Notes under the pieces: model-generated
The model's database searches: none
What the model saw: only the letters and a program-made list of their open reading frames with translations
Told to the model about the DNA's origin: nothing
Program-made: the position numbers and the translations under genes
Virus record (IMG/VR): IMGVR_UViG_3300013021_000001
Source: a virus
Taxonomy: Duplodnaviria > Heunggongvirae > Uroviricota > Caudoviricetes
Direction: 5' to 3' (one strand)
DNA length: 44,547 bases
Shown: positions 4,656 through 38,580 of the stretch, piece after piece
Position numbering within the stretch: position 1 is the stretch's first letter
How the letters are laid out: every line of letters begins with the position of its first letter

Positions 4656-4991
4656 ATGAAGAAAATCATAAGTGACAAAGTTGAGAGTATACCTTTAGAT
4701 TCTTTAAGTGGTTCTCATTTTGATAGTTATAATTTTGGGGTTATAGAAGATGGTAAAGCTTTTATATTATGCTATGATAGTCATCATAAGAAGTATTACT
4801 GGAAAAGATTTGAGAGGTTGAACACTCACAATAGCTATCAGTTGTGTTCTTATAAGAATTATAATGACGTTATAGGTGCTTTGGGGTTGTGGGTAGATGT
4901 AGATGACAGTATTAAAAATAATGTTAGTATTTATATGGATAGGTCTTTAACCTCTTTAATTGTTGGTATGTCTAATTATTTTAGTGTTTAA
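4656..4991 (+). CDS. Hypothetical protein (paralog family A)
   Basis: ORF with the same ACGAAAGGGGTT RBS leader as the 4015 ORF. Confidence 0.75.
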   Translation: MKKIISDKVESIPLDSLSGSHFDSYNFGVIEDGKAFILCYDSHHKKYYWKRFERLNTHNSYQLCSYKNYNDVIGALGLWVDVDDSIKNNVSIYMDRSLTSLIVGMSNYFSV

Positions 4992-5022
4992 TTTTTATCT
5001 ATCAGGAAAAAGGAGGGATTTT

Positions 5023-5343
5023 ATGTTTCAGAAAGTAGTAGAAGATGTAAATACTGTTACTTTATATGATTTAAGCGGCTTAGAAATAGAAAATAGTCAT
5101 TATGCAGCAATAATAAATGATGATGTTTATTTTTTAGTTTTTTCAGAAAGAGATGGTTCTTTTCTTTGGAGAGAAGGAAAATATTTATTTGGCAAAGGCT
5201 CAGGCTCAGACATAGGCTGTTTTGAGAATAAAAAAAGTGCTGTTGAATATATACAAGGTAAAAACAATAGTATATATAAAAGTGGCTCTGTTATGGAACT
5301 GTTAGAAGGTTTATTTGATGTTTTAGCACAGGGGGGAGTTTAA
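5023..5343 (+). CDS. Hypothetical protein (paralog family A)
   Basis: Start moved to ATG 5023 after AGGAGGG RBS. Confidence 0.75.
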   Translation: MFQKVVEDVNTVTLYDLSGLEIENSHYAAIINDDVYFLVFSERDGSFLWREGKYLFGKGSGSDIGCFENKKSAVEYIQGKNNSIYKSGSVMELLEGLFDVLAQGGV

Positions 5344-5345
5344 AG

Positions 5346-5582
5346 ATGTTAACAAATTGTGATTTATGTAAGGCAGAAAAAGAGCAGGAAGAGCTTGTTA
5401 ATATTGACCCTGCTATTACAGAGGATGTGGGTGACTTAAAAAAAGAGTATCAAAACTTTGATGGTATGGTTTGCCCTGATTGTTATGCAGATGAGATGAT
5501 AACTCTTAAGTTTAGAAAAGAGGATATGCTAAGAGCTAAGGCTCAGACAGTTGCTGAGTATAAGAAGGCTATTACAAAATAG
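5346..5582 (+). CDS. Small Zn-finger-like hypothetical protein
   Basis: CDLC...CPDC. Confidence 0.7.
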   Translation: MLTNCDLCKAEKEQEELVNIDPAITEDVGDLKKEYQNFDGMVCPDCYADEMITLKFRKEDMLRAKAQTVAEYKKAITK

Positions 5583-11958: not shown

Positions 11959-12411
11959 ATGTTAAACAGAATAGTATTAATTGGAAGATTGACAAGAGAC
12001 CCGGAGCTTCGCTATACATCTAATGGAACTCCAGTATGTAATTTTACACTGGCGGTAGAGAGAAACTACACTAATCGTGATGGAGAAAGAGATGTGGACT
12101 TCATCAATATCGTAACCTGGAGAGGTCTTGCAGAAAGCTGTGCTAAGCACCTTGGTAAAGGAAGACTTGTAGGAGTTGACGGTTCACTGCAGATTAGGAA
12201 CTCAGAAAACAACGGCCGTAAGTACATCAACCCTGAAGTAAGGGCTGACAATGTACGCTTCCTTGACTTTGGAGATAATAACGGTGGCGGAAAGTCAAGC
12301 AGTAACTCAAATAAGGGCTCTTACAACAATAATAATAACTCACAAAACCAAAATCAAAACCAGAACCAAAGTTCACAATTTAATGATGACGACTTTGACG
12401 TACCGTTTTAG
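11959..12411 (+). CDS. ssb: Single-stranded DNA-binding protein (host-like)
   Basis: MLNRIVLIGRLTRDPELRYT...; C-terminal DDFDVPF. Confidence 0.97.
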   Translation: MLNRIVLIGRLTRDPELRYTSNGTPVCNFTLAVERNYTNRDGERDVDFINIVTWRGLAESCAKHLGKGRLVGVDGSLQIRNSENNGRKYINPEVRADNVRFLDFGDNNGGGKSSSNSNKGSYNNNNNSQNQNQNQNQSSQFNDDDFDVPF

Positions 12412-12417
12412 GCAAAA

Positions 12418-12442
12418 AGGCGGGGCCTTGTGCCCTGCCTTA
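12418..12442 (+). terminator. Intrinsic terminator-like hairpin after ssb
   Basis: AAGGCGGGGC-CTTGT-GCCCTGCCTT followed by T-rich run. Confidence 0.65.
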
Positions 12443-13352: not shown

Positions 13353-13381
13353 TTGAAAAATGTAGTGAAGTATGATATAAT
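13353..13381 (+). promoter_or_regulatory. Consensus SigA-type promoter driving the RNA array
   Basis: TTGAAA-17 nt-(TGA)TATAAT, 20 bp upstream of the first RNA. Confidence 0.88.
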
Positions 13382-13400
13382 AAACTTAACAGATAAACAA

Positions 13401-13546
13401 GTCATTGGTGGCGGAATAAGTAGACGCTATAATGGTAAGGCATTCGGTGGGAAACATAATAACCAGAGGGGCATATGCTTACACAATTAAAAGCAGCTCT
13501 GCAACATGCGAATGTTCATGTGAGGTGTAAACCCTCACCCATGACA
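13401..13546 (+). ncRNA. tRNA-like RNA with Leu-type D arm, non-canonical T loop and a 93-nt structured middle replacing the anticodon/variable arms
   Basis: GTCATTGG/CCCATGAC acceptor-like stem; GCGGAATAAGTAGACGC D arm; TGAGG-TGTAAAC-CCTCA T arm. Confidence 0.65.
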
Positions 13547-13556
13547 TTATATATAT

Positions 13557-13602
13557 GCCGGTTCGGGAAACTACAGGTTAGTTACCTGCCCTGCCGGCTC
13601 CA
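13557..13602 (+). ncRNA. tRNA minihelix-like RNA ending in TCCA
   Basis: GCCGGT/GCCGGC plus GGG/CCC stem, CAGG-TTAGTTA-CCTG arm, 3' TCCA. Confidence 0.45.
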
Positions 13603-13611
13603 AAATTTAAA

Positions 13612-13696
13612 GGAAGAGTGTCCGAGTGGTTTAAGGAGACAGTTTGCTAAACTGTTACCGACAGGTTCAGGGGTTCAAATCCCCTCTCTTCCTCCA
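13612..13696 (+). tRNA. tRNA-Ser(GCT), canonical
   Basis: GGAAGAG/CTCTTCC acceptor; ACAGT-TTGCTAA-ACTGT; long variable arm; TTCAAAT T loop; encoded CCA. Confidence 0.95.
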
Positions 13697-13702
13697 TTTT
13701 TT

Positions 13703-13814
13703 CGGGAGATAGCTCAGCAGGCTAGAGCAGCTAAAATATGTCTTGTATAAGGTATTAACAGCAATCACATCCCATTAAAGGAGCGTGTCGCAGGTTCGAA
13801 TCCTGCTCTCCCGG
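13703..13814 (+). tRNA. Interrupted tRNA-like gene; 38-nt ACAGCAA module inside the anticodon stem; loop CATTAAA (apparent TTA)
   Basis: CGGGAGA/TCTCCCG; GCTC/GAGC D stem; GCT[13733-13770]CC/GGAGC; GCAGG-TTCGAAT-CCTGC. Confidence 0.85.
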
Positions 13815-13823
13815 TCATTTTTA

Positions 13824-13915
13824 GTCGCAGTGATAGTTTTTGGCAATTTAAACTATCTTCAAATAAATGCGACAGAATTAAGATTCCTCTACAAAATTGC
13901 CAGAGGGCTTAATTC
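13824..13915 (+). ncRNA. Two-hairpin RNA with complementary loops (kissing-loop candidate)
   Basis: GTCGCA/TGCGAC and GATAGTTT/AAACTATC; GAATTAAG/CTTAATTC and CCTCT/AGAGG; loops TGGCAATTT and AAATTGCCA. Confidence 0.55.
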
Positions 13916-13916
13916 A

Positions 13917-14040
13917 AAATTAATCTGTCAGCAACATGTAAACAGCCTGGCTACAATATTAAAAACAAACTGCCAGGCTTAGGAAATACATGGAAACAAC
14001 TGCCGAGCTCTGTGGGCTAGCTGTTGCGACGGGTTAATTT
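13917..14040 (+). ncRNA. Branched structured RNA, unidentified
   Basis: 13-bp closing stem AAATTAATCTGTC/GACGGGTTAATTT; GCAAC/GTTGC; CATGTA/TACATG; AGCCTGGC/GCCAGGCT. Confidence 0.6.
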
Positions 14041-14042
14041 AC

Positions 14043-14161
14043 GGTGAGGTAGCCAAGATGGAAAGGCTCCGGCGCAAAAAGAAAGTGTGACTAGTTTAGT
14101 CACCAACAGCAATTCTTCTATGTCAAGCCGGGATTCGCGGGTTCAACTCCCGTCCTCACCA
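14043..14161 (+). tRNA. Interrupted tRNA-like gene, apparent anticodon GTC (Asp); ~46-nt ACAGCAA module at the 5' edge of the anticodon loop
   Basis: GGTGAGG/CCTCACC; CCGGC/GCCGG; insert with GTGACTA-GTT-TAGTCAC hairpin then AACAGCAA (14105-14112); TTCAACT T loop. Confidence 0.85.
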
Positions 14162-14173
14162 ATTACAATTTTT

Positions 14174-14291
14174 CGAAGGGTAGCTCAACTGGTAGAGCAG
14201 CTAAAATATATGCTTAGTTTTAAGCGTTAACAGCAATCAATTTTCCTTGAGGAGGAGCTTGCTGCAGGTTCGAATCCTGCCCCTTCGACCA
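14174..14291 (+). tRNA. Interrupted tRNA-like gene, apparent anticodon GAG; 42-nt ACAGCAA module inside the anticodon stem
   Basis: CGAAGGG/CCCTTCG-ACCA; GCT[14203-14244]CC-TTGAGGA-GGAGC; short variable loop atypical for Leu. Confidence 0.85.
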
Positions 14292-14422: not shown

Positions 14423-14459
14423 ACTTTAGGAATTAAAGATTAATTTTTTGTAATTTTTA

Positions 14460-14537
14460 AAGACGGCACACAGCAACCAAACTATTATATAATAAAAGAC
14501 GAATAAGGCTGACACTTTTTTATCCCTGAGCCGTCTT
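14460..14537 (+). ncRNA. Free-standing ACAGCAA stem RNA A
   Basis: AAGACGGC/GCCGTCTT stem, ACACAGCAACC immediately 3' of the 5' strand; internal CTGACAC loop on a weak stem. Confidence 0.7.
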
Positions 14538-14542
14538 GTTAT

Positions 14543-15913
14543 AGATTTTAGGCACTAGAAAACCTAGTAGGCTTGCCCCTATGGATGAATAGTACCTAAT
14601 TTTGAAGTAACTCATTGTAATATATAATATTAGTATAGGAGGTGAAGATAATGATTAAGAAGTTCAAGCCAATCAACAAAGCATATAAATTTAGAATTTA
14701 TCCTAATCAAGAACAACAAGAGTTAATTGATAAAACAATAGGTTGTAGTCGATTCATCTATAATGAATTTCTGGCAAAGTCTAAAGATAATCAATATAAA
14801 TCTTATTCTAAAAACTCTAAAGAGTTAACTCAACTAAAGAAAGAATATACTTGGCTTAAAGAAGTAGATTCTATAGCATTACAACAAAGTCTTAAAGACT
14901 TAGATAGAGCTTTTAAAAACTTCTTTAGTGGTAAATATAACTTTCCTAAGTTTAAGTCTAAAAGAAAAGCTAGATTATCTTATCGCACTCAAAAATTTAT
15001 TAGACCTAGTGGTAGCACTAACATTGAGATTAATGATAATAAAATCAAACTACCTAAGCTATCTTGGGTTAGATTCGCTAAATCTAAAGAGGTTAAAGGT
15101 AAAATTAATAATGTTACAGTTTCTAAATCTAAAGTAGGCAAATATTATATCTCAATTAATGTTAGTCAAGTCTTAGTAACTACTGTTAAAGACAATCAAG
15201 GTGAATTAGGATTAGATTTGGGTATTAAAGACTTTCTAACTACATCTAATGGTGAACATATATCTAACCCTAGACACTTATCGAAATATCAAGATAAACT
15301 AGCTAAACTACAAAGAAGATTAGCTAAAAAACAGAAATTCTCTAACAATTGGTATAAACTTAAAAAGAAAATTGCCAAAGTGCATACTAAAATCAAAAAT
15401 GTAAGATTGGACTTCCTTCACAAATTATCTACTAGATTAGTTAAGGAGAATCAACTGCTAGTCATAGAAGATTTAAATGTGAAGGGGATGATTAAAAATT
15501 CTAAACTGGCTAAACATATCGCAGATTGTAGCTGGTCTAAGTTTACTACTATGCTTGAATATAAAGGAAAATGGTATGACTGCATTTTACACAAAGTAAA
15601 TCGCTTTTTTGCTAGTAGTCAAACTTGTAATATATGTGGTACTAAAAACCCTAAAGTCAAAGATTTGTCTGTCAGAGATTGGACTTGTAGCTGTGGTGCA
15701 ACTCATAACAGAGATACAAATGCTAGTCTAAACCTCTTAAAACAAGGTAAATTAGACTTAGGACTTAGATAGATTACATACTGTCGGACTGACAGGAATT
15801 TACGCTTTTGGAGAGAGCATAAGACCTAACTTAATCTGATTAAATAATTAGCTTTAAGTAGGCAATTCTCGTTGAAAAAAGAATCCCCGCAGGCTTGCCT
15901 CGGGGTAGGTCAA
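14543..15913 (+). mobile_element. Non-autonomous IS200/IS605-family (IS1341-like) element, tnpB only
   Basis: Related subterminal hairpins (AGGCTTGCC core) at ~14559-14585 and ~15880-15905; right end GAAT...TCAA; TTAT just left of the left end; no tnpA. Confidence 0.85.
14642..15772 (+). CDS. tnpB: RNA-guided endonuclease TnpB
   Basis: KAYKFRIYPN HTH, GLDLGIK RuvC-I, VIEDLNVKGM RuvC-II, SSQTCNICG...CSCG Zn finger, HNRDTNASLN RuvC-III. Confidence 0.97.
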   Translation: MKIMIKKFKPINKAYKFRIYPNQEQQELIDKTIGCSRFIYNEFLAKSKDNQYKSYSKNSKELTQLKKEYTWLKEVDSIALQQSLKDLDRAFKNFFSGKYNFPKFKSKRKARLSYRTQKFIRPSGSTNIEINDNKIKLPKLSWVRFAKSKEVKGKINNVTVSKSKVGKYYISINVSQVLVTTVKDNQGELGLDLGIKDFLTTSNGEHISNPRHLSKYQDKLAKLQRRLAKKQKFSNNWYKLKKKIAKVHTKIKNVRLDFLHKLSTRLVKENQLLVIEDLNVKGMIKNSKLAKHIADCSWSKFTTMLEYKGKWYDCILHKVNRFFASSQTCNICGTKNPKVKDLSVRDWTCSCGATHNRDTNASLNLLKQGKLDLGLR

Positions 15914-16029: not shown

Positions 16030-16851
16030 TTGTTTATAGCAGAAGTTGGTATTAACCACAACGGAAATTTAGAGTATGCCTATGAGTTAATAGATATGGC
16101 ATATAAAGCTGGAGCAGATGTAGTTAAATTTCAGAAAAGAAACCCTAAAAAGTGTGTGCCCAAAGACCAGTGGCATAAAAAGAAAAAAACACCGTGGGGT
16201 GAGATGGACTATATTGATTATAAATACAGAATGGAATTTGGTTATAGCGAATATGTAGCACTGAATGCTTACTGTCACAAGCTGGGAGTTAAATGGACAG
16301 CAAGTGTATGGGATATTGAATCTCTTGAATTTCTAACTGATTTTAATGTGCCGTTCATAAAAATTGCTAGTGCCTCAATCACAGATATGAAGCTTTTAGA
16401 AGCTGTAAGAAAGACAGGAATCCCTGTAGTTTTATCCACTGGTATGAGTACAGAAGAAGAAATTGATAAAGCAGTTAATGTTTTTGAAGGATATGAAGAT
16501 AAGTTAAGTATCATGCACTGCAACAGCAGTTATCCATCAGCTGAGAATGAGCTTGACTTAAGAATAATTGAAAGACTTAAAGAAAAGTATCCTTTAAATA
16601 TTATAGGTTACAGCGGCCACGAAAAAGGGATTCAACCGACAATAGCAGCTAAAGTTTTAGGAGCTGAGATAATTGAAAGACATATCACTCTAGATAAGGA
16701 TATGTGGGGCAGCGACCACAGTGCAAGTCTAGAATACAAAGAGCTAAAAGAGCTTATCGACAATCTTAACAGAGTTGATAACTGGCTCGGGAGTGATAAT
16801 ATTAAAGTTTATGAATCTGAAGAAAAAGTAAAAGAAAAACTTAGAAAATAA
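16030..16851 (+). CDS. neuB: N-acetylneuraminate synthase (NeuB/SpsE) family protein, lacking the C-terminal SAF domain
   Basis: FIAEVGINHNG, VKFQKR, KIASA, LSTGMS, MHCNSSYP, GYSGHE, IERHITLD...GSDH. Confidence 0.92.
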   Translation: MFIAEVGINHNGNLEYAYELIDMAYKAGADVVKFQKRNPKKCVPKDQWHKKKKTPWGEMDYIDYKYRMEFGYSEYVALNAYCHKLGVKWTASVWDIESLEFLTDFNVPFIKIASASITDMKLLEAVRKTGIPVVLSTGMSTEEEIDKAVNVFEGYEDKLSIMHCNSSYPSAENELDLRIIERLKEKYPLNIIGYSGHEKGIQPTIAAKVLGAEIIERHITLDKDMWGSDHSASLEYKELKELIDNLNRVDNWLGSDNIKVYESEEKVKEKLRK

Positions 16852-16859
16852 AAATCTTA

Positions 16860-16923
16860 AAGGCGCCAACAGCAAACTTACTAAATCAAACTTCCAATTT
16901 GAATCCAATAGTAATGGTGCCTT
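16860..16923 (+). ncRNA. Free-standing ACAGCAA stem RNA B displaying a Gly(TCC) anticodon stem-loop
   Basis: AAGGCGCCA/TGGTGCCTT; ACAGCAA; TTACTA/TAGTAA; TCAAA-CTTCCAA-TTTGA. Confidence 0.8.
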
Positions 16924-16931
16924 GTATATAT

Positions 16932-17062
16932 GGCAGTATAGCTCAACTGGTAGAGAGCAAACAAAGTTAATGGGCATAGGCCGGCGGGCCCTTACAGCAA
17001 ACTACAACTAACAATTCTATGTAAAAGAAAAGACGTAGGTTCAAATCCTGCTACTGCCACCA
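16932..17062 (+). tRNA. Interrupted tRNA-like gene, apparent anticodon GTA; ~55-nt ACAGCAA module between D arm and anticodon stem
   Basis: GGCAGTA/TACTGCC-ACCA; GCTC/GAGC; GGCC/GGCC hairpin, TACAGCAA (16993-17000); TTCT-ATGTAAA-AGAA; TTCAAAT T loop. Confidence 0.8.
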
Positions 17063-17107
17063 TCAGCCGGCAATTAAATTAAGTTAACCAACACTCCTTT
17101 CAAATTA

Positions 17108-17173
17108 AAGACAGATGCAGCAACCAATTCTTATGAAGGTATCATAAAACCCGCGAAATGCGGATACTGTCTT
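17108..17173 (+). ncRNA. Free-standing (G)CAGCAA stem RNA C
   Basis: AAGACAG/CTGTCTT; GCAGCAACC; internal hairpins TTATGA/TCATAA and CCGC/GCGG. Confidence 0.7.
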
Positions 17174-17198
17174 GTAGTAGAGTCTTAGGAATTAAATT

Positions 17199-17253
17199 TA
17201 GGCACAATCAGCAACCAAATCAAGGACTGTAAATCCAACAAAATATGTGCCTA
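17199..17253 (+). ncRNA. Free-standing CAGCAA stem RNA D displaying a Tyr(GTA) anticodon loop; directly upstream of the DUF2828 gene
   Basis: TAGGCACA/TGTGCCTA; ATCAGCAACC; GGA-CTGTAAA-TCC. Confidence 0.8.
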
Positions 17254-17281
17254 GTATAAAAACAAAAGGGGGATTATTAAT

Positions 17282-18787
17282 ATGTCAAATAAATTTTTAG
17301 ACGCAATGGAAGATAAAGTTAATTACACAGCAACAGAAAATGGTGCAACAGCAAAACATACAACTAAAGATAACCTACTCGATTTCTTTGCTCAGGTGGG
17401 AGCTTTAAGAAACAGGAATAAAGAAGATATTATAAGGCTTTTTGATAAGGCTTTAACAGAAGATGACCTTCTAGCAGTAAAAACTCTTTTTTATGCCAGA
17501 AATGTTAGGGGTGGGCTAGGAGAAAGAAGAATATTTAGAGTTATTTTAAAATATCTGACACAGGTAAAGCCTGAGGTAGTTCTAAAAAACTTAGAACACA
17601 TACCTCATTATGGTCGATGGGACGATTTATATGCCTTATTTGATACAAGACTTGAAGGCTATGCAGCAAACTTTATGAAAGCCCAGTTCTTTAAGGATAT
17701 CAATTCTGAAAAACCAAGCTTATTAGCAAAATGGCTTAAATCAGAAAATGCAAGCTCAGACGAAACAAAAAGACTTGCCAGAAAGACCAGAAAACATTTT
17801 GAGATGACCGCAAGAGGATATAGAAAAACACTTTCTAAGCTGAGAAAGAAAATAGGTGTTGTCGAAAGAAAAATGTCTAATAATGACTGGGAAGATATTG
17901 ACTACTCATCTGTTCCTTCAAGAGCACAAATGATTTACAATAATGCTTTTGAAAGACATGACCCTGAAGGCTACCATGAATATATTGAAAATGTTAAGTC
18001 TGGAGAGGACAAAATTAATGCCTCAACTTTATATCCTTATGATTTAGTAAGAAAAGTTATCGGTCATGGTTGGGGCCATTCAGTTTCTGAAAGTGAAAGA
18101 GATGTTTTAAATGAGCAGTGGAAAGCATTACCTGATTATATCAATGATAAAAATGAAAATTCTATTTGCGTTGTAGATACTTCAGGCTCTATGATGAGCT
18201 CAGATGGGTTGCCACTTCATATTGCCCTTTCATTAGGATTATATATGGCAGAAAGAAACTCAGGACCCTTTAAAGATAGGTTTATTACCTTCTCTGCCAG
18301 TCCTGATTTAGTAAAAGTAGAAGGCAGTGATTTTGTGCAGAAAATTAAGAACATGAGAAGAGCTCACTGGGATATGAATACCGATATCGAAGCTGTATTT
18401 AATCTTATTTTAGATACTGCTATAGAAAATCATCTCCATCAGGATGAAATACCTCAAAAGTTATACATTATTTCTGATATGGAATTTGACCAGTGTACAA
18501 ATAATAGTTATGGACTTAGTTCTCGTAACAAAGTAACTAAAACACTTTTTGAAAAGTTAAAGGAATCATTCAAATATTATGGCTACAAAATGCCGGATTT
18601 AGTCTTCTGGAATGTTGAAGCAAGAAATGAAGTTTTTCAGTTTGACAAAGACGAAAGAGGATTCCAGCTTGTAAGCGGAGCTTCTCCAGTTGTTTTTGAG
18701 CACACAATGAAGGGTGAGTTTGTTTCCGCCTACGACTTGATGCTCGATGTAATCACAGACGAACAGTACGATAGAATTACAGTTTAA
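17282..18787 (+). CDS. DUF2828-family / TROVE(Ro60)-like protein with C-terminal vWA domain
   Basis: TENGA start, LFYARNVRGGLGER, YGRWDDL, AKWL, SVPSRA, LYPYDLV; MIDAS VVDTSGSM, FITFS, NTD, ISDMEFD, VFWNV. Confidence 0.88.
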   Translation: MSNKFLDAMEDKVNYTATENGATAKHTTKDNLLDFFAQVGALRNRNKEDIIRLFDKALTEDDLLAVKTLFYARNVRGGLGERRIFRVILKYLTQVKPEVVLKNLEHIPHYGRWDDLYALFDTRLEGYAANFMKAQFFKDINSEKPSLLAKWLKSENASSDETKRLARKTRKHFEMTARGYRKTLSKLRKKIGVVERKMSNNDWEDIDYSSVPSRAQMIYNNAFERHDPEGYHEYIENVKSGEDKINASTLYPYDLVRKVIGHGWGHSVSESERDVLNEQWKALPDYINDKNENSICVVDTSGSMMSSDGLPLHIALSLGLYMAERNSGPFKDRFITFSASPDLVKVEGSDFVQKIKNMRRAHWDMNTDIEAVFNLILDTAIENHLHQDEIPQKLYIISDMEFDQCTNNSYGLSSRNKVTKTLFEKLKESFKYYGYKMPDLVFWNVEARNEVFQFDKDERGFQLVSGASPVVFEHTMKGEFVSAYDLMLDVITDEQYDRITV

Positions 18788-18798
18788 TAAAATTACTA

Positions 18799-18830
18799 AG
18801 GCAGGCCTTAATCGGTCTGTCTTTTTTTTA
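18799..18830 (+). terminator. Intrinsic terminator
   Basis: AGGCAGGCC-TTAATC-GGTCTGTCT followed by T run. Confidence 0.75.
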
Positions 18831-19004
18831 TTGGGGTGAAAAAAATGGATAAAGAGTTTAAGTATGCAAAAGTGCTGCCACAAGAGCTAGATAAGACAAT
18901 ATTTGGCTTTTACGTAGAAAAAAATAAAAAAATATTAGAAAAAGACTTGAATAATGAAGTGAAGTGTAGTAAACTAAACTTAAGATAGTAAATAGGAGGT
19001 TTTT

Positions 19005-19302: not shown

Positions 19303-20223
19303 TTGATGGATAAAGATAAGTTAGAGGAATTAAGAGAGTACAATAAAATTTATATTTTAGGCAGTAGTAGCAATCAAGAGATTACAAATTACAAAGAAGA
19401 TGAAATTGTAATTGAAGAAAAAATTGACGGCAGTAACTTTAGGTTCTGGAGAGAAGGAGACAGGATTGTATATAGTTCCAGAAAAGTTAAAGATGTCAGA
19501 CCTCGTGATGGATGGGGCAAACAGATTGAATACCTAAATAAAAAGCTTGATGTAAATGCTCTTGGCAGAGATATTATTTATGTCGGAGAGGCAATGAAAA
19601 AACACATAGTAAATTATGATTTTGATAATTATCCACCATTTATAGGGTTTGACCTTCTGGATAAAGAAACTGGAATGCCACTTGATTATAAAGTCGCCAA
19701 AAAGACTTTTGAAAGTCTGGGTTTAGAATTTGTAAATATCTTATTTGAGGGAACAATGGAAGAATATCTTGGGATGGACAGAGATAAACTTTTAGAAATT
19801 TCTAAGTACAACTCAAAAAAGCCTGAAGGTTATGTTATTAAAAATTATAACAGGTTAAGCCAATACAATGAGCCTCTATTTGCCAAAGTTTTAAATGATG
19901 AGTATTTGGAAAGACAAAAAGCTAAAGCTAAAAAGCCAAAGCCTAAAGAAACAGACACTCCTTTAGCAGTTGAGCTTTATGTAAATGAGGCGAGAATTAA
20001 AAAGATGATAGCTAAAATGGTTGTTGATGAAGGACATAAACTTGAAAGAACGCTAATGCATAAGCTTATCCCGAGAGTTATCAAGGATTTTTTAAGAGAA
20101 AATATTCTTGAAATCTATGAGGATAATAGAATAAAAGATGTAAACTTTAATATTCTACACAAAGAAGTTCCAAAAAGATGTATTAAAGTTTTGGATAAGA
20201 TGATTGAAAGTAATGCATTCTAA
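19303..20223 (+). CDS. ATP-dependent RNA ligase, Rnl2-like
   Basis: Motif I EEKIDGSNFRF, YVGE, FIGFDL, EGYVIK, FAKV; helical C-terminal domain. Confidence 0.85.
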   Translation: MMDKDKLEELREYNKIYILGSSSNQEITNYKEDEIVIEEKIDGSNFRFWREGDRIVYSSRKVKDVRPRDGWGKQIEYLNKKLDVNALGRDIIYVGEAMKKHIVNYDFDNYPPFIGFDLLDKETGMPLDYKVAKKTFESLGLEFVNILFEGTMEEYLGMDRDKLLEISKYNSKKPEGYVIKNYNRLSQYNEPLFAKVLNDEYLERQKAKAKKPKPKETDTPLAVELYVNEARIKKMIAKMVVDEGHKLERTLMHKLIPRVIKDFLRENILEIYEDNRIKDVNFNILHKEVPKRCIKVLDKMIESNAF

Positions 20224-21660: not shown

Positions 21661-22134
21661 ATGAGTACTATTTTTTTAGATATAGATGGAGTTTTAAATT
21701 CAACTAAATCTATAGAAGAAAATTATCTTAAAGGAAACAAAGTTGATGCAGCTAAAATTTTTATACCTCAATCTGTATTTTTAATAAATATGCTTACAAG
21801 TGTAAAAAGTGCAGATGTAGTAATATCAAGTACGTGGCGTTACAACATGGAAAAGGTTATAAAAGTTTTTAAAAAAAACAATCTAAAAACAAGAAATATA
21901 GTTGGGAGAACTCCCTTTTTAGAATCTACAAGGGGTGCAGAAATCAAAAAGTATTTAAAGTCAAATAAAAATATAAAAGATTTTATAATAATTGACGACG
22001 ATAAAGATATGGAGCCATTTTTAGATAAACTAGTACACATAAAAAGAGAAACGGGTTTTGACAATCATGATTACGTTAAATCTTTAAAAATGTTAGGTGG
22101 TAAAAATGTACCAGAAAAAATGTCCAAAGTGTAA
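21661..22134 (+). CDS. HAD phosphatase of the 'Swiss Army Knife' RNA-repair type (HAD_SAK_2-like)
   Basis: IFLDIDGVLN, VISSTWR, GRTP...RGAEI, FIIIDDD motifs. Confidence 0.8.
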   Translation: MSTIFLDIDGVLNSTKSIEENYLKGNKVDAAKIFIPQSVFLINMLTSVKSADVVISSTWRYNMEKVIKVFKKNNLKTRNIVGRTPFLESTRGAEIKKYLKSNKNIKDFIIIDDDKDMEPFLDKLVHIKRETGFDNHDYVKSLKMLGGKNVPEKMSKV

Positions 22135-36943: not shown

Positions 36944-37324
36944 ATGAAAACCAAAAAGTTTGATGATATATTTTACAGAGATAAACTTGCTGATGAGATA
37001 GCAAATTCTAGAATTGAAATGAGCGGAGATGACCATGAAGAAGGTTCAAATTTATGGGGTGTAGAAATTCTTGTTGACGGAGCTTTGGGACAGTTTAAAA
37101 CACAGGCTCTACTTGATATTTTCACAGAAGAAGGACTGACAGAAGAAGAATATAAAAAAGACACCTTTAAATACATGGACGAGTGGACTTTATATATCAG
37201 ACAGGATGTTGAAGAAATGCTCAATGAAGAAATGTCTGAACACTTAGAAGAAGAGGAGTTTCTTGTTTTAGAACCGGGAGATTCAGGAGATATGTGGATA
37301 GCATTACAGAAAGGTGATTTTTAA
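36944..37324 (+). CDS. Hypothetical acidic protein
   Basis: Start after GGAGGG. Confidence 0.75.
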   Translation: MKTKKFDDIFYRDKLADEIANSRIEMSGDDHEEGSNLWGVEILVDGALGQFKTQALLDIFTEEGLTEEEYKKDTFKYMDEWTLYIRQDVEEMLNEEMSEHLEEEEFLVLEPGDSGDMWIALQKGDF

Positions 37325-38580
37325 TGTACACTTTTAATGGTTTATATACAGGCTTGCCTGTTAAAGTCTGGATTGATGAAAGTGAAGATTTAGATGATAA
37401 CACATTTAAAGAAGCAGTAGAAATATCAAAGCTCCCATACGCTAAATCACACATAGCATTGATGCCTGATGTACACGCTACGGGCTACCATATGCCAGTT
37501 GGCGGGGTTTTAGCTACAAAGGATGTTATAGTACCTGATGCAGTCTCGAACGATATAGGGTGCGGTGTCGCCTTTATACAGACAGATATTGAGGCCTGCT
37601 TTATGCAAACAACACACATGGATTCAGGAACAGTTGCTCAGGAACTGGTTGGGTCAATTATGAGAGATTTACCAACAGGATTTCAGCACTGCAAAAAAGA
37701 AGAAAACAAAGATAACATGGAGCTTCTAAATCTAATTAATAATTTAAACTATGGTGGAGATATTGAAGAAAAACCTCTTTTAATGGAAGCTGTCATGGAG
37801 TCTATGGAAATTGTTGGAAGTCTAGGAGGTGGCAACCACTTCGTTGAGCTACAGGAAAACAAAGAGGGTAATCTTGCAATTATGATTCACACCGGCTCCA
37901 GAAGTGTTGGCGCTAAAATAAACTCTCATTTTAGTAAGTTAGCAAAAAGTTTAAATAAAAAATGGTATGTTGATGTTTTATCTGATGATGTAACAATGCC
38001 CTTTTTACCACTCGATAGTGATGAGGGTCAGGAATATATGAAATTCATGAATTTTGCCTTAAAAGTTGCTGAGTTAAATAGAGATAAAATTATGGATTTA
38101 GTTCTAAATAAGACTATTGATTTACTTAAAAAAAGAGGTCTTATTGATAATTATAAAATTACAAGAAGATTAAATGTCCACCACAATTATGCTGCCTATG
38201 AAAATGTGAACGGTGTTAACTACATGGTGCATAGGAAAGGAGCTGTGCGGGCCAGAGGTACAGATATGGTGCCTATTCCAGGAGCAATGGGTTCATCTTC
38301 CTTTATTGCTCAGGGTCTTGGGAATGATGCTTCATTCAAGTCCTGCAGCCATGGAGCCGGGAGAACTCACACCAGAACTGCAGCCAAAGAAGAATATTCA
38401 GTGCAAGAGGTTATGGAAGATTTAAAAGAAAAGAATGTTGTACTTGGTAAAACTAATAAAAAAGATGTTGCAGAAGAATACATGAAGGCATATAAAGACA
38501 TTCATCAGGTTATGGAAAATCAAAAAGATTTAGTATCCGTGATTGATGAACTAAAAACTATTGCAGTTATTAAAGGTTAG
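37324..38580 (+). CDS. rtcB: RtcB-family RNA 3'-phosphate/5'-OH ligase
   Basis: MPDVH, NDIGCG, GGGNHFVE, HTGSR, HHNY, HRKGA, PGAMG, SCSHGAGR. Confidence 0.96.
   Translation: MYTFNGLYTGLPVKVWIDESEDLDDNTFKEAVEISKLPYAKSHIALMPDVHATGYHMPVGGVLATKDVIVPDAVSNDIGCGVAFIQTDIEACFMQTTHMDSGTVAQELVGSIMRDLPTGFQHCKKEENKDNMELLNLINNLNYGGDIEEKPLLMEAVMESMEIVGSLGGGNHFVELQENKEGNLAIMIHTGSRSVGAKINSHFSKLAKSLNKKWYVDVLSDDVTMPFLPLDSDEGQEYMKFMNFALKVAELNRDKIMDLVLNKTIDLLKKRGLIDNYKITRRLNVHHNYAAYENVNGVNYMVHRKGAVRARGTDMVPIPGAMGSSSFIAQGLGNDASFKSCSHGAGRTHTRTAAKEEYSVQEVMEDLKEKNVVLGKTNKKDVAEEYMKAYKDIHQVMENQKDLVSVIDELKTIAVIKG

What the first reader, a model, noticed from the sequence alone, without database searches (positions are those of the whole stretch)
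17199..18787. Ro60-like DUF2828/vWA gene caps the array: candidate protein partner of the ACAGCAA RNAs
Seen: the ORF starts 29 bp after the last CAGCAA unit, closes the locus with a terminator, and has a helical N-terminal region plus a vWA MIDAS. Established: Ro60/Rsr (TROVE-vWA) binds Y RNAs, some tRNA-like (YrlA), and its genes often neighbour rtcB. These RNAs differ from YrlA: the module sits in the anticodon arm, and I see no GNCGAAN-type Ro-binding motif. Inference: a parallel, apparently undescribed DUF2828-ACAGCAA RNP that protects, baits or delivers cut tRNAs for repair. Unit D may also autoregulate the gene.
Basis: partly seen in the sequence, partly recalled or inferred. Interest (0 to 1): 0.87.

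Follow-up and report, generated by a model that had tools for sequence, protein, structure and literature searches.

The report
Phage Ro60-like protein with ACAGCAA-handle RNAs
This phage gene encodes a ring-shaped protein that folds like the RNA-binding autoantigen Ro60, and it sits at the end of an array of small RNAs that share one "handle" (a 7-bp helix followed by ACAGCAA); the same handle accompanies this gene family across very different phages, so the two most likely form a Ro/Y-RNA-type particle, not yet published as far as I could find, that displays pieces of tRNA.

Summary
ORF 17282-18787 (+, 501 aa) is a Pfam DUF2828+DUF7788 protein. It starts 26-28 nt after the last CAGCAA stem-loop and ends at an intrinsic terminator. 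Its MIDAS residues are invariant across homologs.

Its AlphaFold model matches Ro60/TROVE proteins over the full length, clearly above vWA-only hits. Sequence searches find neither TROVE nor Ro60.

The RNA partnership is supported by co-occurrence in both directions.
- A covariance model of the handle found 160 hits in 66 of 84 DUF2828 loci, all on the gene's strand.
- Of 38 viral records chosen only for carrying the RNA motif, 32 encode DUF2828. The base rate is about 1.4% of phage records.
- Units flank the gene in Listeria, Bacillus, Staphylococcus, Enterococcus, Campylobacter, Mycobacterium and Felix O1-like phages.

The handle occurs free-standing, around permuted tRNA-like domains, or closed by a tetraloop inside the anticodon stem of tRNA bodies, as in this window. 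Units are enriched in anticodon-arm look-alikes.

The RNAs are not YrlA and are not in Rfam as a phage family. Their signature matches Dictyostelium Class I RNAs.

Binding and function were not tested here. Ro-likeness of the protein is already in phage annotations and one preprint. This scan has found the same pairing before on other DNA.

The parts
13353..13381 (+). Promoter-like site (TTGAAA-17-TATAAT with upstream TG) in front of the RNA array
   Evidence: 11 of 12 consensus matches. A consensus match only, not shown to be functional.
13703..13814 (+). tRNA-like gene with an ACAGCAA handle inserted in the 5' strand of the anticodon stem. The handle is a closed 7-bp hairpin, then UA, then ACAGCAA.
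   Evidence: Rfam tRNA 43.7 bits with a 49-nt insert; handle anatomy
14043..14161 (+). tRNA-like gene with an embedded handle. The anticodon-loop candidate is AUGUCAA.
   Evidence: Rfam tRNA 44.3 bits with a 53-nt insert
14174..14288 (+). tRNA-like gene with an embedded handle. Removing the insert restores the stem GCUCC/GGAGC and the loop UUGAGGA.
   Evidence: Rfam tRNA 47.4 bits
14299..14413 (+). Fifth tRNA-like gene with an embedded handle and a long variable arm. The loop is C|UGAAAA.
   Evidence: Read from the sequence; handle anatomy. Not called by Rfam or ARAGORN.
14458..14539 (+). Free-standing ACAGCAA-handle RNA (unit A)
   Evidence: Model R1 28.4 bits, E 8.5e-5; this unit was not in the model's seed. 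Fold z-score -2.4.
16858..16925 (+). Free-standing ACAGCAA-handle RNA (unit B) with an anticodon-arm-like hairpin: 5-bp stem, loop CUUCCAA
   Evidence: R1 47 bits (seed member); fold z-score -3.35
16932..17059 (+). tRNA-like gene with an embedded handle at about position 26/27. An intact arm UUCU-AUGUAAA-AGAA lies downstream.
   Evidence: Rfam tRNA 43.6 bits with a 71-nt insert
17106..17175 (+). Free-standing handle RNA (unit C; GCAGCAA variant)
   Evidence: R1 27.6 bits, E 1.4e-4; not in the seed. Fold z-score -2.8.
17197..17255 (+). Free-standing handle RUnit D (UCAGCAA variant), ending 26 nt before the start codon
   Evidence: R1 41 bits (seed member)
17282..18787 (+). DUF2828+DUF7788 protein, 501 aa: a Ro60-like helical ring plus a vWA domain with an intact MIDAS
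18798..18833 (+). Intrinsic terminator closing the unit
19303..20223 (+). RNA ligase (PF09414), 0.5 kb downstream. Context only, not shown to act with the particle.
21661..22134 (+). HAD_SAK_2 phosphatase domain of RNA-repair proteins (context)
37324..38580 (+). RtcB RNA ligase (context; 18.5 kb downstream)

Best explanation
The gene encodes a divergent Ro60-type protein: a TROVE-like helical ring plus a vWA domain with a metal site. The small RNAs encoded beside it on the same strand are its Y-RNA-like partners.

All these RNAs share a 'handle'. It is a 7-bp helix, then two nucleotides and single-stranded ACAGCAA on the strand leaving the helix, with an A-rich strand entering it. I infer that this handle is the protein's docking site, in the same position as the Ro-binding motif of Y RNAs.

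The rest of each RNA is a variable 'cargo'. It can be an anticodon-arm look-alike, a T/D-arm elbow with a closed acceptor stem, or, as in this window, a whole tRNA body with the handle closed by a tetraloop and planted in the anticodon stem.

The particle would therefore present tRNA parts. I think it most likely acts as a decoy or tether for proteins that recognise tRNA. These could be host anticodon nucleases or other defence factors, or the phage's own repair enzymes (Rnl2-like ligase, HAD phosphatase, RtcB).

Shown here: the fold, the RNA family with its covariation, and the two-way co-occurrence. Inferred: direct binding, the handle as docking site, and the decoy or repair role.
For: Protein:
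- Pfam DUF2828+DUF7788.
- Model with pLDDT 81.7.
- The top 12 Foldseek PDB hits are all Ro60/TROVE over the full length.
- VIA Z is 15.1, 13.5 and 12.4 for Thermus phage phiLo Ro60, Deinococcus Rsr and Xenopus Ro60, against 9 for the best vWA-only hit.
- The Swiss-Prot top five are Ro60 proteins, followed by telomerase p80, another TROVE protein.
- MIDAS residues are invariant.
- In one DUF2828 Atlas cluster, 16% of members also carry PF05731 TROVE.

RNA:
- All 7 helix pairs covary, with 75 double changes.
- ACAGCAA on the + strand occurs 83 times in the 500 nt upstream of 84 DUF2828 genes. Other 500-nt bins hold 2-21, and the minus strand about 1.
- Model R1 gives 160 hits in 66 of 84 loci, all on the gene's strand.
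- Units lie next to the gene in distant phages, upstream or downstream. Felix O1-like phages carry four units, seen by eye.
- Phage Samty has only two hits in its 75 kb, and both directly follow the gene.

Reverse test:
- 39 motif-selected loci had closed units. Of these, 17 hold DUF2828 in the held DNA, against 2 of 72 chance matches.
- Whole-record searches raise this to 32 of 38.
- The one complete record lacking DUF2828 has no R1 hit.
- The base rate is 711 of 50,697 phage records.

Same handle in permuted form: 19 of 20 tRNA-embedded modules are a closed hairpin (mostly 7 bp), a short linker (mostly 2 nt) and then ACAGCAA.

Cargo: anticodon-arm-like hairpins occur in 50 of 146 units, against 10.4 +/- 2.8 in shuffles.

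Precedents: a phage Ro60 binds adjacent Y-like RNAs and host PNPase (PMC12135203). Bas63 gp130 is Ro60-like, lies next to tRNA genes and counters the Ppl defence system (preprint).
Against: - No binding data exist for any DUF2828 protein with these RNAs.
- Sequence methods do not link the protein to TROVE. Pfam PF05731 is absent at E 0.01, and a profile search of PDB sequences finds no Ro60.
- TM-scores of 0.45-0.56 are moderate.
- 18 of 84 loci gave no R1 hit at E 0.01, though some have longer variant units. Aeromonas phage Aeh1 has none in its whole genome.
- These RNAs always lie in or near tRNA arrays and RNA-repair genes. Some of the co-occurrence could therefore reflect a shared genomic island rather than physical partnership.
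- The decoy or repair role is inference only.
Confidence: 0.7

Rival explanations
1. The ACAGCAA RNAs work with another factor, such as the RNA ligases, PhoH, a host tRNA enzyme or a host nuclease. DUF2828 merely belongs to the same tRNA/RNA-repair island.
For: The units lie inside tRNA arrays, and RNA ligase, HAD_SAK_2, PhoH and RtcB are encoded in the same genomes. Some units lie kilobases from DUF2828.
Against: DUF2828 was the only companion I tested. It is present in 32 of 38 motif-bearing records. In phage Samty, the only two units in the genome abut the gene. RtcB is adjacent in the Listeria phage but 18.5 kb away here. The fold is that of a protein known to bind exactly this kind of RNA.
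Confidence: 0.12
2. The handle is a small intron or mobile insertion in tRNA genes. It is removed by cleavage and religation (RtcB or Rnl2), with DUF2828 as a processing cofactor. Free-standing units would be excised or degenerate copies.
For: Insertions sit in the 5' strand of the anticodon stem or at the loop edge. Deleting them restores a 5-bp stem and a 7-nt loop in this window and in other phage contigs. Two RNA ligase types are encoded in the window.
Against: - Free-standing units far outnumber embedded ones, have their own covarying terminal helix and carry no exons.
- The embedded form is an exact circular permutation of the free form, which fits a structural module better than an intron.
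- I identified no splicing endonuclease or ribozyme, and no ribozyme family hit the RNA array or the related loci searched with Rfam.
- Several loops do not fit their tRNA bodies. The candidate anticodons and the long variable arm were read.
Confidence: 0.08
3. The units are cis-acting leader or processing elements, such as an autoregulatory operator or RNase sites. They would control DUF2828 expression or tRNA-array maturation and would not be stable trans-acting RNAs.
For: In many loci the last unit lies close upstream of the gene's start (ACAGCAA at -59 to -142), as here. The array and the gene appear to share one promoter and one terminator.
Against: Units lie downstream of the gene in Staphylococcus, Mycobacterium and Felix O1-like phages. 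They occur in 1-6 copies, often kilobases away, and are fused to tRNA bodies or tRNA-like domains.
Confidence: 0.05

Closest known systems
Ro60 (Rsr, TROVE+vWA) with Y RNAs. This covers bacterial Rsr with Yrn1/YrlA/YrlB (Chen et al. 2014, PMC4201824) and Thermus phage phiLo Ro60 with Yrl1/Yrl2 (PMC12135203).
   Same: - Ring-plus-vWA fold with a MIDAS site.
- Partner RNA genes lie beside the protein gene on the same strand.
- The RNAs have a terminal helix with a conserved motif on the 5' side and a variable distal module.
- Some distal modules are tRNA-like with a closed acceptor stem, as in YrlA.
- RNA-repair genes are encoded nearby.
   Different: - No sequence-level TROVE match.
- The RNA motif is ACAGCAA just after a 7-bp helix, not GNCGAAN0-1G/CGAA.
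- The YrlA covariance model does not match.
- Units come in arrays and are often only 50-70 nt long.
- A permuted form sits inside complete tRNA bodies with free acceptor ends.
Class I RNAs of dictyostelid social amoebae (Rfam RF01414; Kjellin et al. 2021, PMC7919456)
   Same: - About 60 nt long.
- A 6-7-bp helix joins the two ends and covaries.
- The conserved motif follows the 5' strand. The Rfam consensus reads CUUACAGCAAU.
- The interior is variable and there is an A-rich stretch before the 3' strand.
- The ends are AAG... and ...CUGU. The phage consensus is uAaAGACaC-UA-ACAGCAA...GuGUCUuGU.
   Different: - Scores of 14-15 bits lie far below the family's threshold of 41.5.
- Class I RNAs are eukaryotic, with a DUSE promoter.
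- The only protein shown to bind them directly is an RRM protein (Rnp1A), not a Ro-like one.
- The paper reports none outside Dictyostelia.
- Whether the likeness is homology or convergence is open.
Bas63 gp130 (PhageMaP preprint, 10.1101/2024.10.10.617714)
   Same: It is described as structurally Ro60-like and directly upstream of the tRNA genes of an E. coli phage. The authors suggest that some 'tRNA genes' are Y RNAs. Deleting the gene sensitises the phage to the Ppl defence system. Felix O1-like phages carry the DUF2828 gene in exactly that position.
   Different: I did not verify that gp130 is the DUF2828 homolog. That Bas63 is a Felixounavirus is from my own knowledge. The preprint names no specific RNA and no handle motif.

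Membership tests
Pfam DUF2828 / DUF7788 | Both domain models match above their gathering scores | tested here: met
   PF11443 141.9 bits (cut-off 29); PF25043 163.2 bits (cut-off 27.1)
Ro60 / TROVE proteins | TROVE domain recognisable by sequence (PF05731, or Ro60 chains of the PDB) | tested here: not met
   No PF05731 hit at E 0.01. A profile of 30 homologs finds no Ro60 among PDB sequences at E 10. As a bridge, 16% of one DUF2828 Atlas cluster carry PF05731.
Ro60 / TROVE proteins | Helical-repeat ring followed by a vWA domain (overall fold) | tested here: met
   Foldseek top 12 hits are all Ro60/TROVE with about 520-600 aligned columns. VIA Z 15.1/13.5/12.4 with 379-414 residues aligned. The Swiss-Prot top 5 are Ro60 proteins. 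This is a predicted model, not a solved structure.
Ro60 / TROVE proteins | MIDAS motif in the vWA domain | tested here: met
   D299-x-S301-x-S303, T367 and D399 are invariant in 30 homologs
Ro60 / TROVE proteins | Binds a Y RNA | not testable with these tools
   Only genomic co-occurrence is shown
YrlA-type Y RNA (Rfam RF02553) | Match to the covariance model, and the Ro-binding motif GNCGAAN0-1G | tested here: not met
   The best YrlA hit scores 24.7 bits against 69 and spans two neighbouring tRNA-like genes. No YrlA hit was found in phage loci L001-L004. The conserved motif here is ACAGCAA.
Dictyostelium Class I RNA (Rfam RF01414) | Terminal 6-bp helix, the 11-nt motif after its 5' strand, and a length of about 60 nt | tested here: met
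   The alignments to the model consensus show the CUUACAGCAA core and both helix strands. The features are as described in PMC7919456.
Dictyostelium Class I RNA (Rfam RF01414) | Score at or above the family's gathering threshold | tested here: not met
   14.4 and 15.4 bits against 41.5
Canonical tRNA (for the five insert-bearing genes) | Contiguous anticodon arm; called by ARAGORN | tested here: not met
   ARAGORN calls only tRNA-Ser at 13612. Rfam tRNA matches four of the five, but only by skipping inserts of 49-71 nt.

The most novel reading that the evidence does not exclude
DUF2828 proteins and ACAGCAA-handle RNAs form a second, very widespread Ro/Y-type particle. Its RNAs display anticodon arms, tRNA elbows or whole tRNAs as decoys or tethers against tRNA-targeting host defences. 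The same handle in Dictyostelium Class I RNAs would mean that this RNA-protein pairing is shared across domains of life, which would give those unexplained amoeba RNAs a candidate partner.
Probability: 0.3. Interest if true: 0.9.

Novelty: new variant of a known kind. Interest (0 to 1): 0.78.

Why it matters
Ro60/Y-RNA particles are known from animals, some bacteria and a few phages, and their RNA partners are thought to be YrlA-like.

Here a much larger phage protein family appears to have its own, different RNA partner class. The family is found in 711 of about 50,700 phage records. These include Felix O1, Listeria A511/P100-type, Staphylococcus, Enterococcus, Campylobacter and mycobacteriophages. 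The RNA class has a simple, searchable handle.

This has several consequences:
- It explains many 'gaps' and odd 'pseudo-tRNAs' in phage tRNA arrays.
- It gives a concrete RNA candidate for the reported anti-defence phenotype of a Ro60-like phage gene.
- Binding, structure and function can be tested directly in standard laboratory phages.
- The match to the Class I RNA signature of social amoebae is an unexpected lead for a 20-year-old orphan RNA class.

Tried and rejected
- Rfam at gathering and permissive thresholds on the window, the array and four phage loci. No family covers the units except sub-threshold RF01414.
- The YrlA reading was rejected.
- A sequence-profile search of PDB chains found no Ro60. 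Only the fold comparison shows the relationship.
- Literature searches for DUF2828, DUF7788, ACAGCAA and Ro-like phage proteins found no description of the RNA family. Burroughs & Aravind 2016 and Sim et al. 2020 could not be read, so a mention there cannot be excluded. The supplements of Chen et al. 2014 are not held.
- A first, loose screen for anticodon-like hairpins was polluted by real tRNAs and chance stems. It was redone on the covariance-model hits only.
- The one complete viral record with the 14-mer pattern but no DUF2828 turned out to have no model hit, so it was a chance match.
- The AlphaFold DB cluster search gave DUF2828/DUF7788 relatives but no organism names. Whether Dictyostelium has a DUF2828 protein therefore stays open.
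- No whole genome is held for this window.
- The R1 hit at 12312-12431 (E 0.002, ACAACAA variant, overlapping the end of the SSB gene) is treated as doubtful.
Full report
**What is in the window**

The ORF 17282..18787 (+, 501 aa) begins with ATG. An AAGGGGG ribosome-binding site lies at 17266-17272, read. The finding's start coordinate, 17199, is the first base of the last small RNA unit, which ends 26-28 nt before the ATG. A 10-bp stem followed by a T run closes the unit at 18798-18833. A near-consensus promoter at 13353-13381 precedes the whole RNA array.

Pfam assigns DUF2828 and DUF7788 to the protein. Thirty homologs with 50-62% identity keep the MIDAS residues D299, S301, S303, T367 and D399 invariant.

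The neighbours are:
- an RNA ligase (PF09414) 0.5 kb downstream;
- a HAD_SAK_2 RNA-repair phosphatase domain, PhoH and RtcB further on;
- an IS605-type TnpB and a NeuB gene inside the RNA array.

The window reads as a phage: nearly all ORFs of 80 aa or more lie on one strand, and it encodes SSB, RecA, a Bro-N-domain protein and a DNA methylase.

**Is the protein Ro60-like?**

By sequence it is not. There is no TROVE (PF05731) hit, and a family profile finds no Ro60 among PDB chains.

By fold it is.
- The AlphaFold model has pLDDT 81.7 and pTM 0.72.
- Its twelve best Foldseek matches in the PDB are all Ro60/TROVE structures aligned over the whole length. They include Thermus phage phiLo, Xenopus, human and Deinococcus Rsr.
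- An independent aligner gives Z 15.1, 13.5 and 12.4 with 379-414 residues aligned. The next hits are vWA domains alone at Z 9.
- Among reviewed UniProt models, the top five are Ro60 proteins and the sixth is telomerase p80, another TROVE protein.
- In one Atlas cluster of DUF2828 proteins, 16% of members also carry the TROVE Pfam model.

The protein therefore works like, and is probably a remote homolog of, Ro60, but it fails the sequence definition of the TROVE family. This is not new in itself. Mycobacteriophage homologs are annotated 'Ro-like RNA binding protein'. A preprint describes a Ro60-like gp130 beside the tRNA genes of E. coli phage Bas63.

**The RNAs**

The window has four free-standing units, at 14458, 16858, 17106 and 17197. 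It also has five tRNA-like genes with long inserts, at 13703, 14043, 14174, 14299 and 16932. All are on the + strand.

The same element appeared at once upstream of the DUF2828 genes of Bacillus phages FADO and Tsamsa and of Listeria phage LMSP-25.

In 84 DUF2828 loci, ACAGCAA on the gene's strand occurs 83 times in the 500 nt before the gene. Other 500-nt bins hold 2-21 occurrences, and the opposite strand holds about one.

Forty-two short units align to this consensus: uAaAGACaC, two nucleotides, ACAGCAA, a variable interior, an A-rich stretch, then GuGUCUuGU. All seven helix pairs covary, with 75 double substitutions. The seed units were selected for having a stem, so the fraction of paired positions is circular evidence. 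The variety of pair types is not.

A covariance model built from them (R1) gave these results:
- It recovers two window units that were not in its seed.
- It finds 160 hits in 66 of the 84 loci, every one on the gene's strand.
- It finds units next to the gene in Staphylococcus, Mycobacterium, Enterococcus and Campylobacter phages, sometimes upstream and sometimes downstream.
- In phage Samty, the only two hits in 75 kb directly follow the gene.

Felix O1-like phages carry four units inside the tRNA array just after the gene. These were seen by eye and score only weakly with the model.

**Reverse test**

I scanned viral contigs for a 14-base version of the handle.
- Of 111 matches, 39 have the closing strand and 72 do not. 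The 72 serve as chance 14-mer controls.
- DUF2828 lies in the held DNA of 17 of the 39 and of 2 of the 72, always on the same strand.
- Searching the whole records of 19 others found the gene in 13.
- Two more loci lie on contigs already known to carry the gene.
- The total is 32 of 38.
- Five of the six negatives are incomplete records (20-80% complete). The sixth, a complete record, has no R1 hit, so its match was chance.

The base rate of the gene is 711 of 50,697 phage records.

**One handle, three topologies**

In free-standing units the helix joins the two RNA ends.

In some units the interior is a T arm, a closed acceptor stem and a D arm. This is the permuted tRNA-like layout known from YrlA. 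Examples are FADO 2505 and 4114, and typing phage 1 at 5341.

In this window, and in at least 15 further genes from other phage contigs, the layout is reversed. A complete tRNA body has open acceptor ends, and the handle is closed by a 3-4-nt loop and inserted in the 5' strand of the anticodon stem or at the loop edge. In 19 of 20 such genes the insert is an A-rich linker, a hairpin (mostly 7 bp), a short linker (mostly 2 nt) and then ACAGCAA. Several hairpins read as the 3' strand of the free form joined to its 5' strand, for example GUGUCUU-loop-AAGACGU.

This exact circular permutation argues that the handle is a structural module, most simply a protein docking site. In every topology ACAGCAA leads, after a short linker, into an anticodon-type arm or a tRNA-like domain.

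**Cargo**

Among 146 model hits, 50 contain a hairpin of at least 4 bp with a 7-nt loop of the anticodon type (pyrimidine-U-NNN-purine-N). Dinucleotide shuffles give 10.4 +/- 2.8, with a maximum of 19.

The commonest loops are CUUUUAA (11 times) and CUGUUAA (6 times), mostly on 5-bp stems. By my own knowledge these are the loops of tRNA-Lys(UUU) and tRNA-Asn(GUU), both classic targets of anticodon nucleases. That link is inference.

In this window:
- Unit B carries UCAAA-CUUCCAA-UUUGA.
- Unit D carries GGA-CUGUAAA-UCC (read).
- The tRNA-like genes offer GAG, GUC, GAA, GUA and an odd CAUUAAA loop. Some sit on bodies of the wrong class, which fits display rather than decoding.

**How it most likely works**

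By analogy with Ro60, which docks the Y RNA helix on its outer surface and uses the distal RNA module to gate or tether other proteins, I propose the following. The DUF2828 ring binds the handle, and the cargo recruits or traps proteins that read tRNA. The phiLo work shows that a phage Ro60 does bind adjacent RNAs and captures host PNPase. The Bas63 preprint links a Ro60-like phage gene to escape from a defence system.

A decoy for tRNA-targeting nucleases and a platform for the phage's own repair enzymes are both compatible with the data. I cannot separate them. Direct binding is itself inferred.

Autoregulation through unit D is possible, since in many loci a unit lies just upstream of the gene's start. 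It cannot be the main role, because in other phages the units follow the gene.

**Comparison with what is known**

The RNAs are not YrlA, and no Rfam family reaches threshold.

The nearest described RNA is, unexpectedly, the Class I RNA of dictyostelid amoebae. The Rfam consensus is a 6-bp terminal helix, CUUACAGCAAU, a variable interior, an A-rich stretch and the closing strand plus UG. The paper describes AAG starts, CUGU ends and a length of about 60 nt. The scores here, 14-15 bits, are far below the threshold of 41.5, so I do not file the phage RNAs as members. The lead came from earlier notes of this scan, and I checked the consensus myself.

I found no paper describing the phage RNA family. 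Two relevant reviews could not be read.

**Earlier findings of this scan**

This scan has found the same protein-RNA pairing before on other DNA: 133 notes in at least 114 genomes. My conclusions agree with those follow-ups, but they rest on the tests run here.

**Verdict**

The gene is an ordinary member of a large phage family whose Ro-likeness is already annotated. The new element is its RNA partner class and the modular, permutable architecture of that class, which this window shows in its rarest form, handles planted inside full tRNA bodies. The finding is a new variant of the Ro/Y-RNA kind, of high interest, with binding and function still to be shown.

Noticed in passing
window 14642-15900: An IS605-family TnpB gene (OrfB_IS605 plus the Cas12f1-like TNB domain), with about 130 nt of structured-looking sequence after its stop, sits in the middle of the RNA array. 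It looks like a secondary insertion that splits the array.
   Followed up: partly
window 16030-16851: A NeuB-family (sialic-acid-type sugar synthase) gene lies inside the same promoter-to-terminator unit as the RNA array and the DUF2828 gene. This is an odd companion for an RNA operon.
   Followed up: no
window 13400-13610 and 13815-14040: Further structured, ORF-poor stretches of the array without a clear ACAGCAA handle: one CAGCAA at 13929, and hairpins at about 13830 and 13880. I did not analyse them. Earlier first-reader notes describe them as tRNA shells or kissing hairpins.
   Followed up: no
window 12312-12431: A weak match to the handle model (22.8 bits, E 0.002, ACAACAA in place of ACAGCAA) overlaps the 3' end of the SSB gene. 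It is probably chance, but it lies on the same strand, about 1 kb upstream of the array.
   Followed up: no
L003 (Listeria phage LMSP-25) 980-1078 and 3467-4018: The same tRNA/DUF2828 region of the Listeria phage also holds a drum RNA (50 bits, above threshold) and a ROOL-like RNA (88.5 bits, just under threshold). Several orphan structured RNAs therefore cluster with the Ro-like gene. RtcB and a second RNA ligase follow within 6 kb.
   Followed up: no
L086 (E. coli O157 typing phage 1, Felix O1-like) 4706-5480: Four handle RNAs (helix AGACC.../...GGUCU) lie between annotated tRNA genes just downstream of the DUF2828 gene. One encloses a T arm, a closed acceptor stem and a D arm. The gene itself is present in 251 Felix O1-like records.
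   Followed up: partly
L097 5787-5905 (-), window 13739-13756: In tRNA-embedded handles the hairpin reads like the 3' end of a free unit joined directly to its 5' end (GUGUCUU-loop-AAGACGU). This could reflect evolutionary permutation or end-joining of a free unit by an RNA ligase. It remains unexplained.
   Followed up: partly
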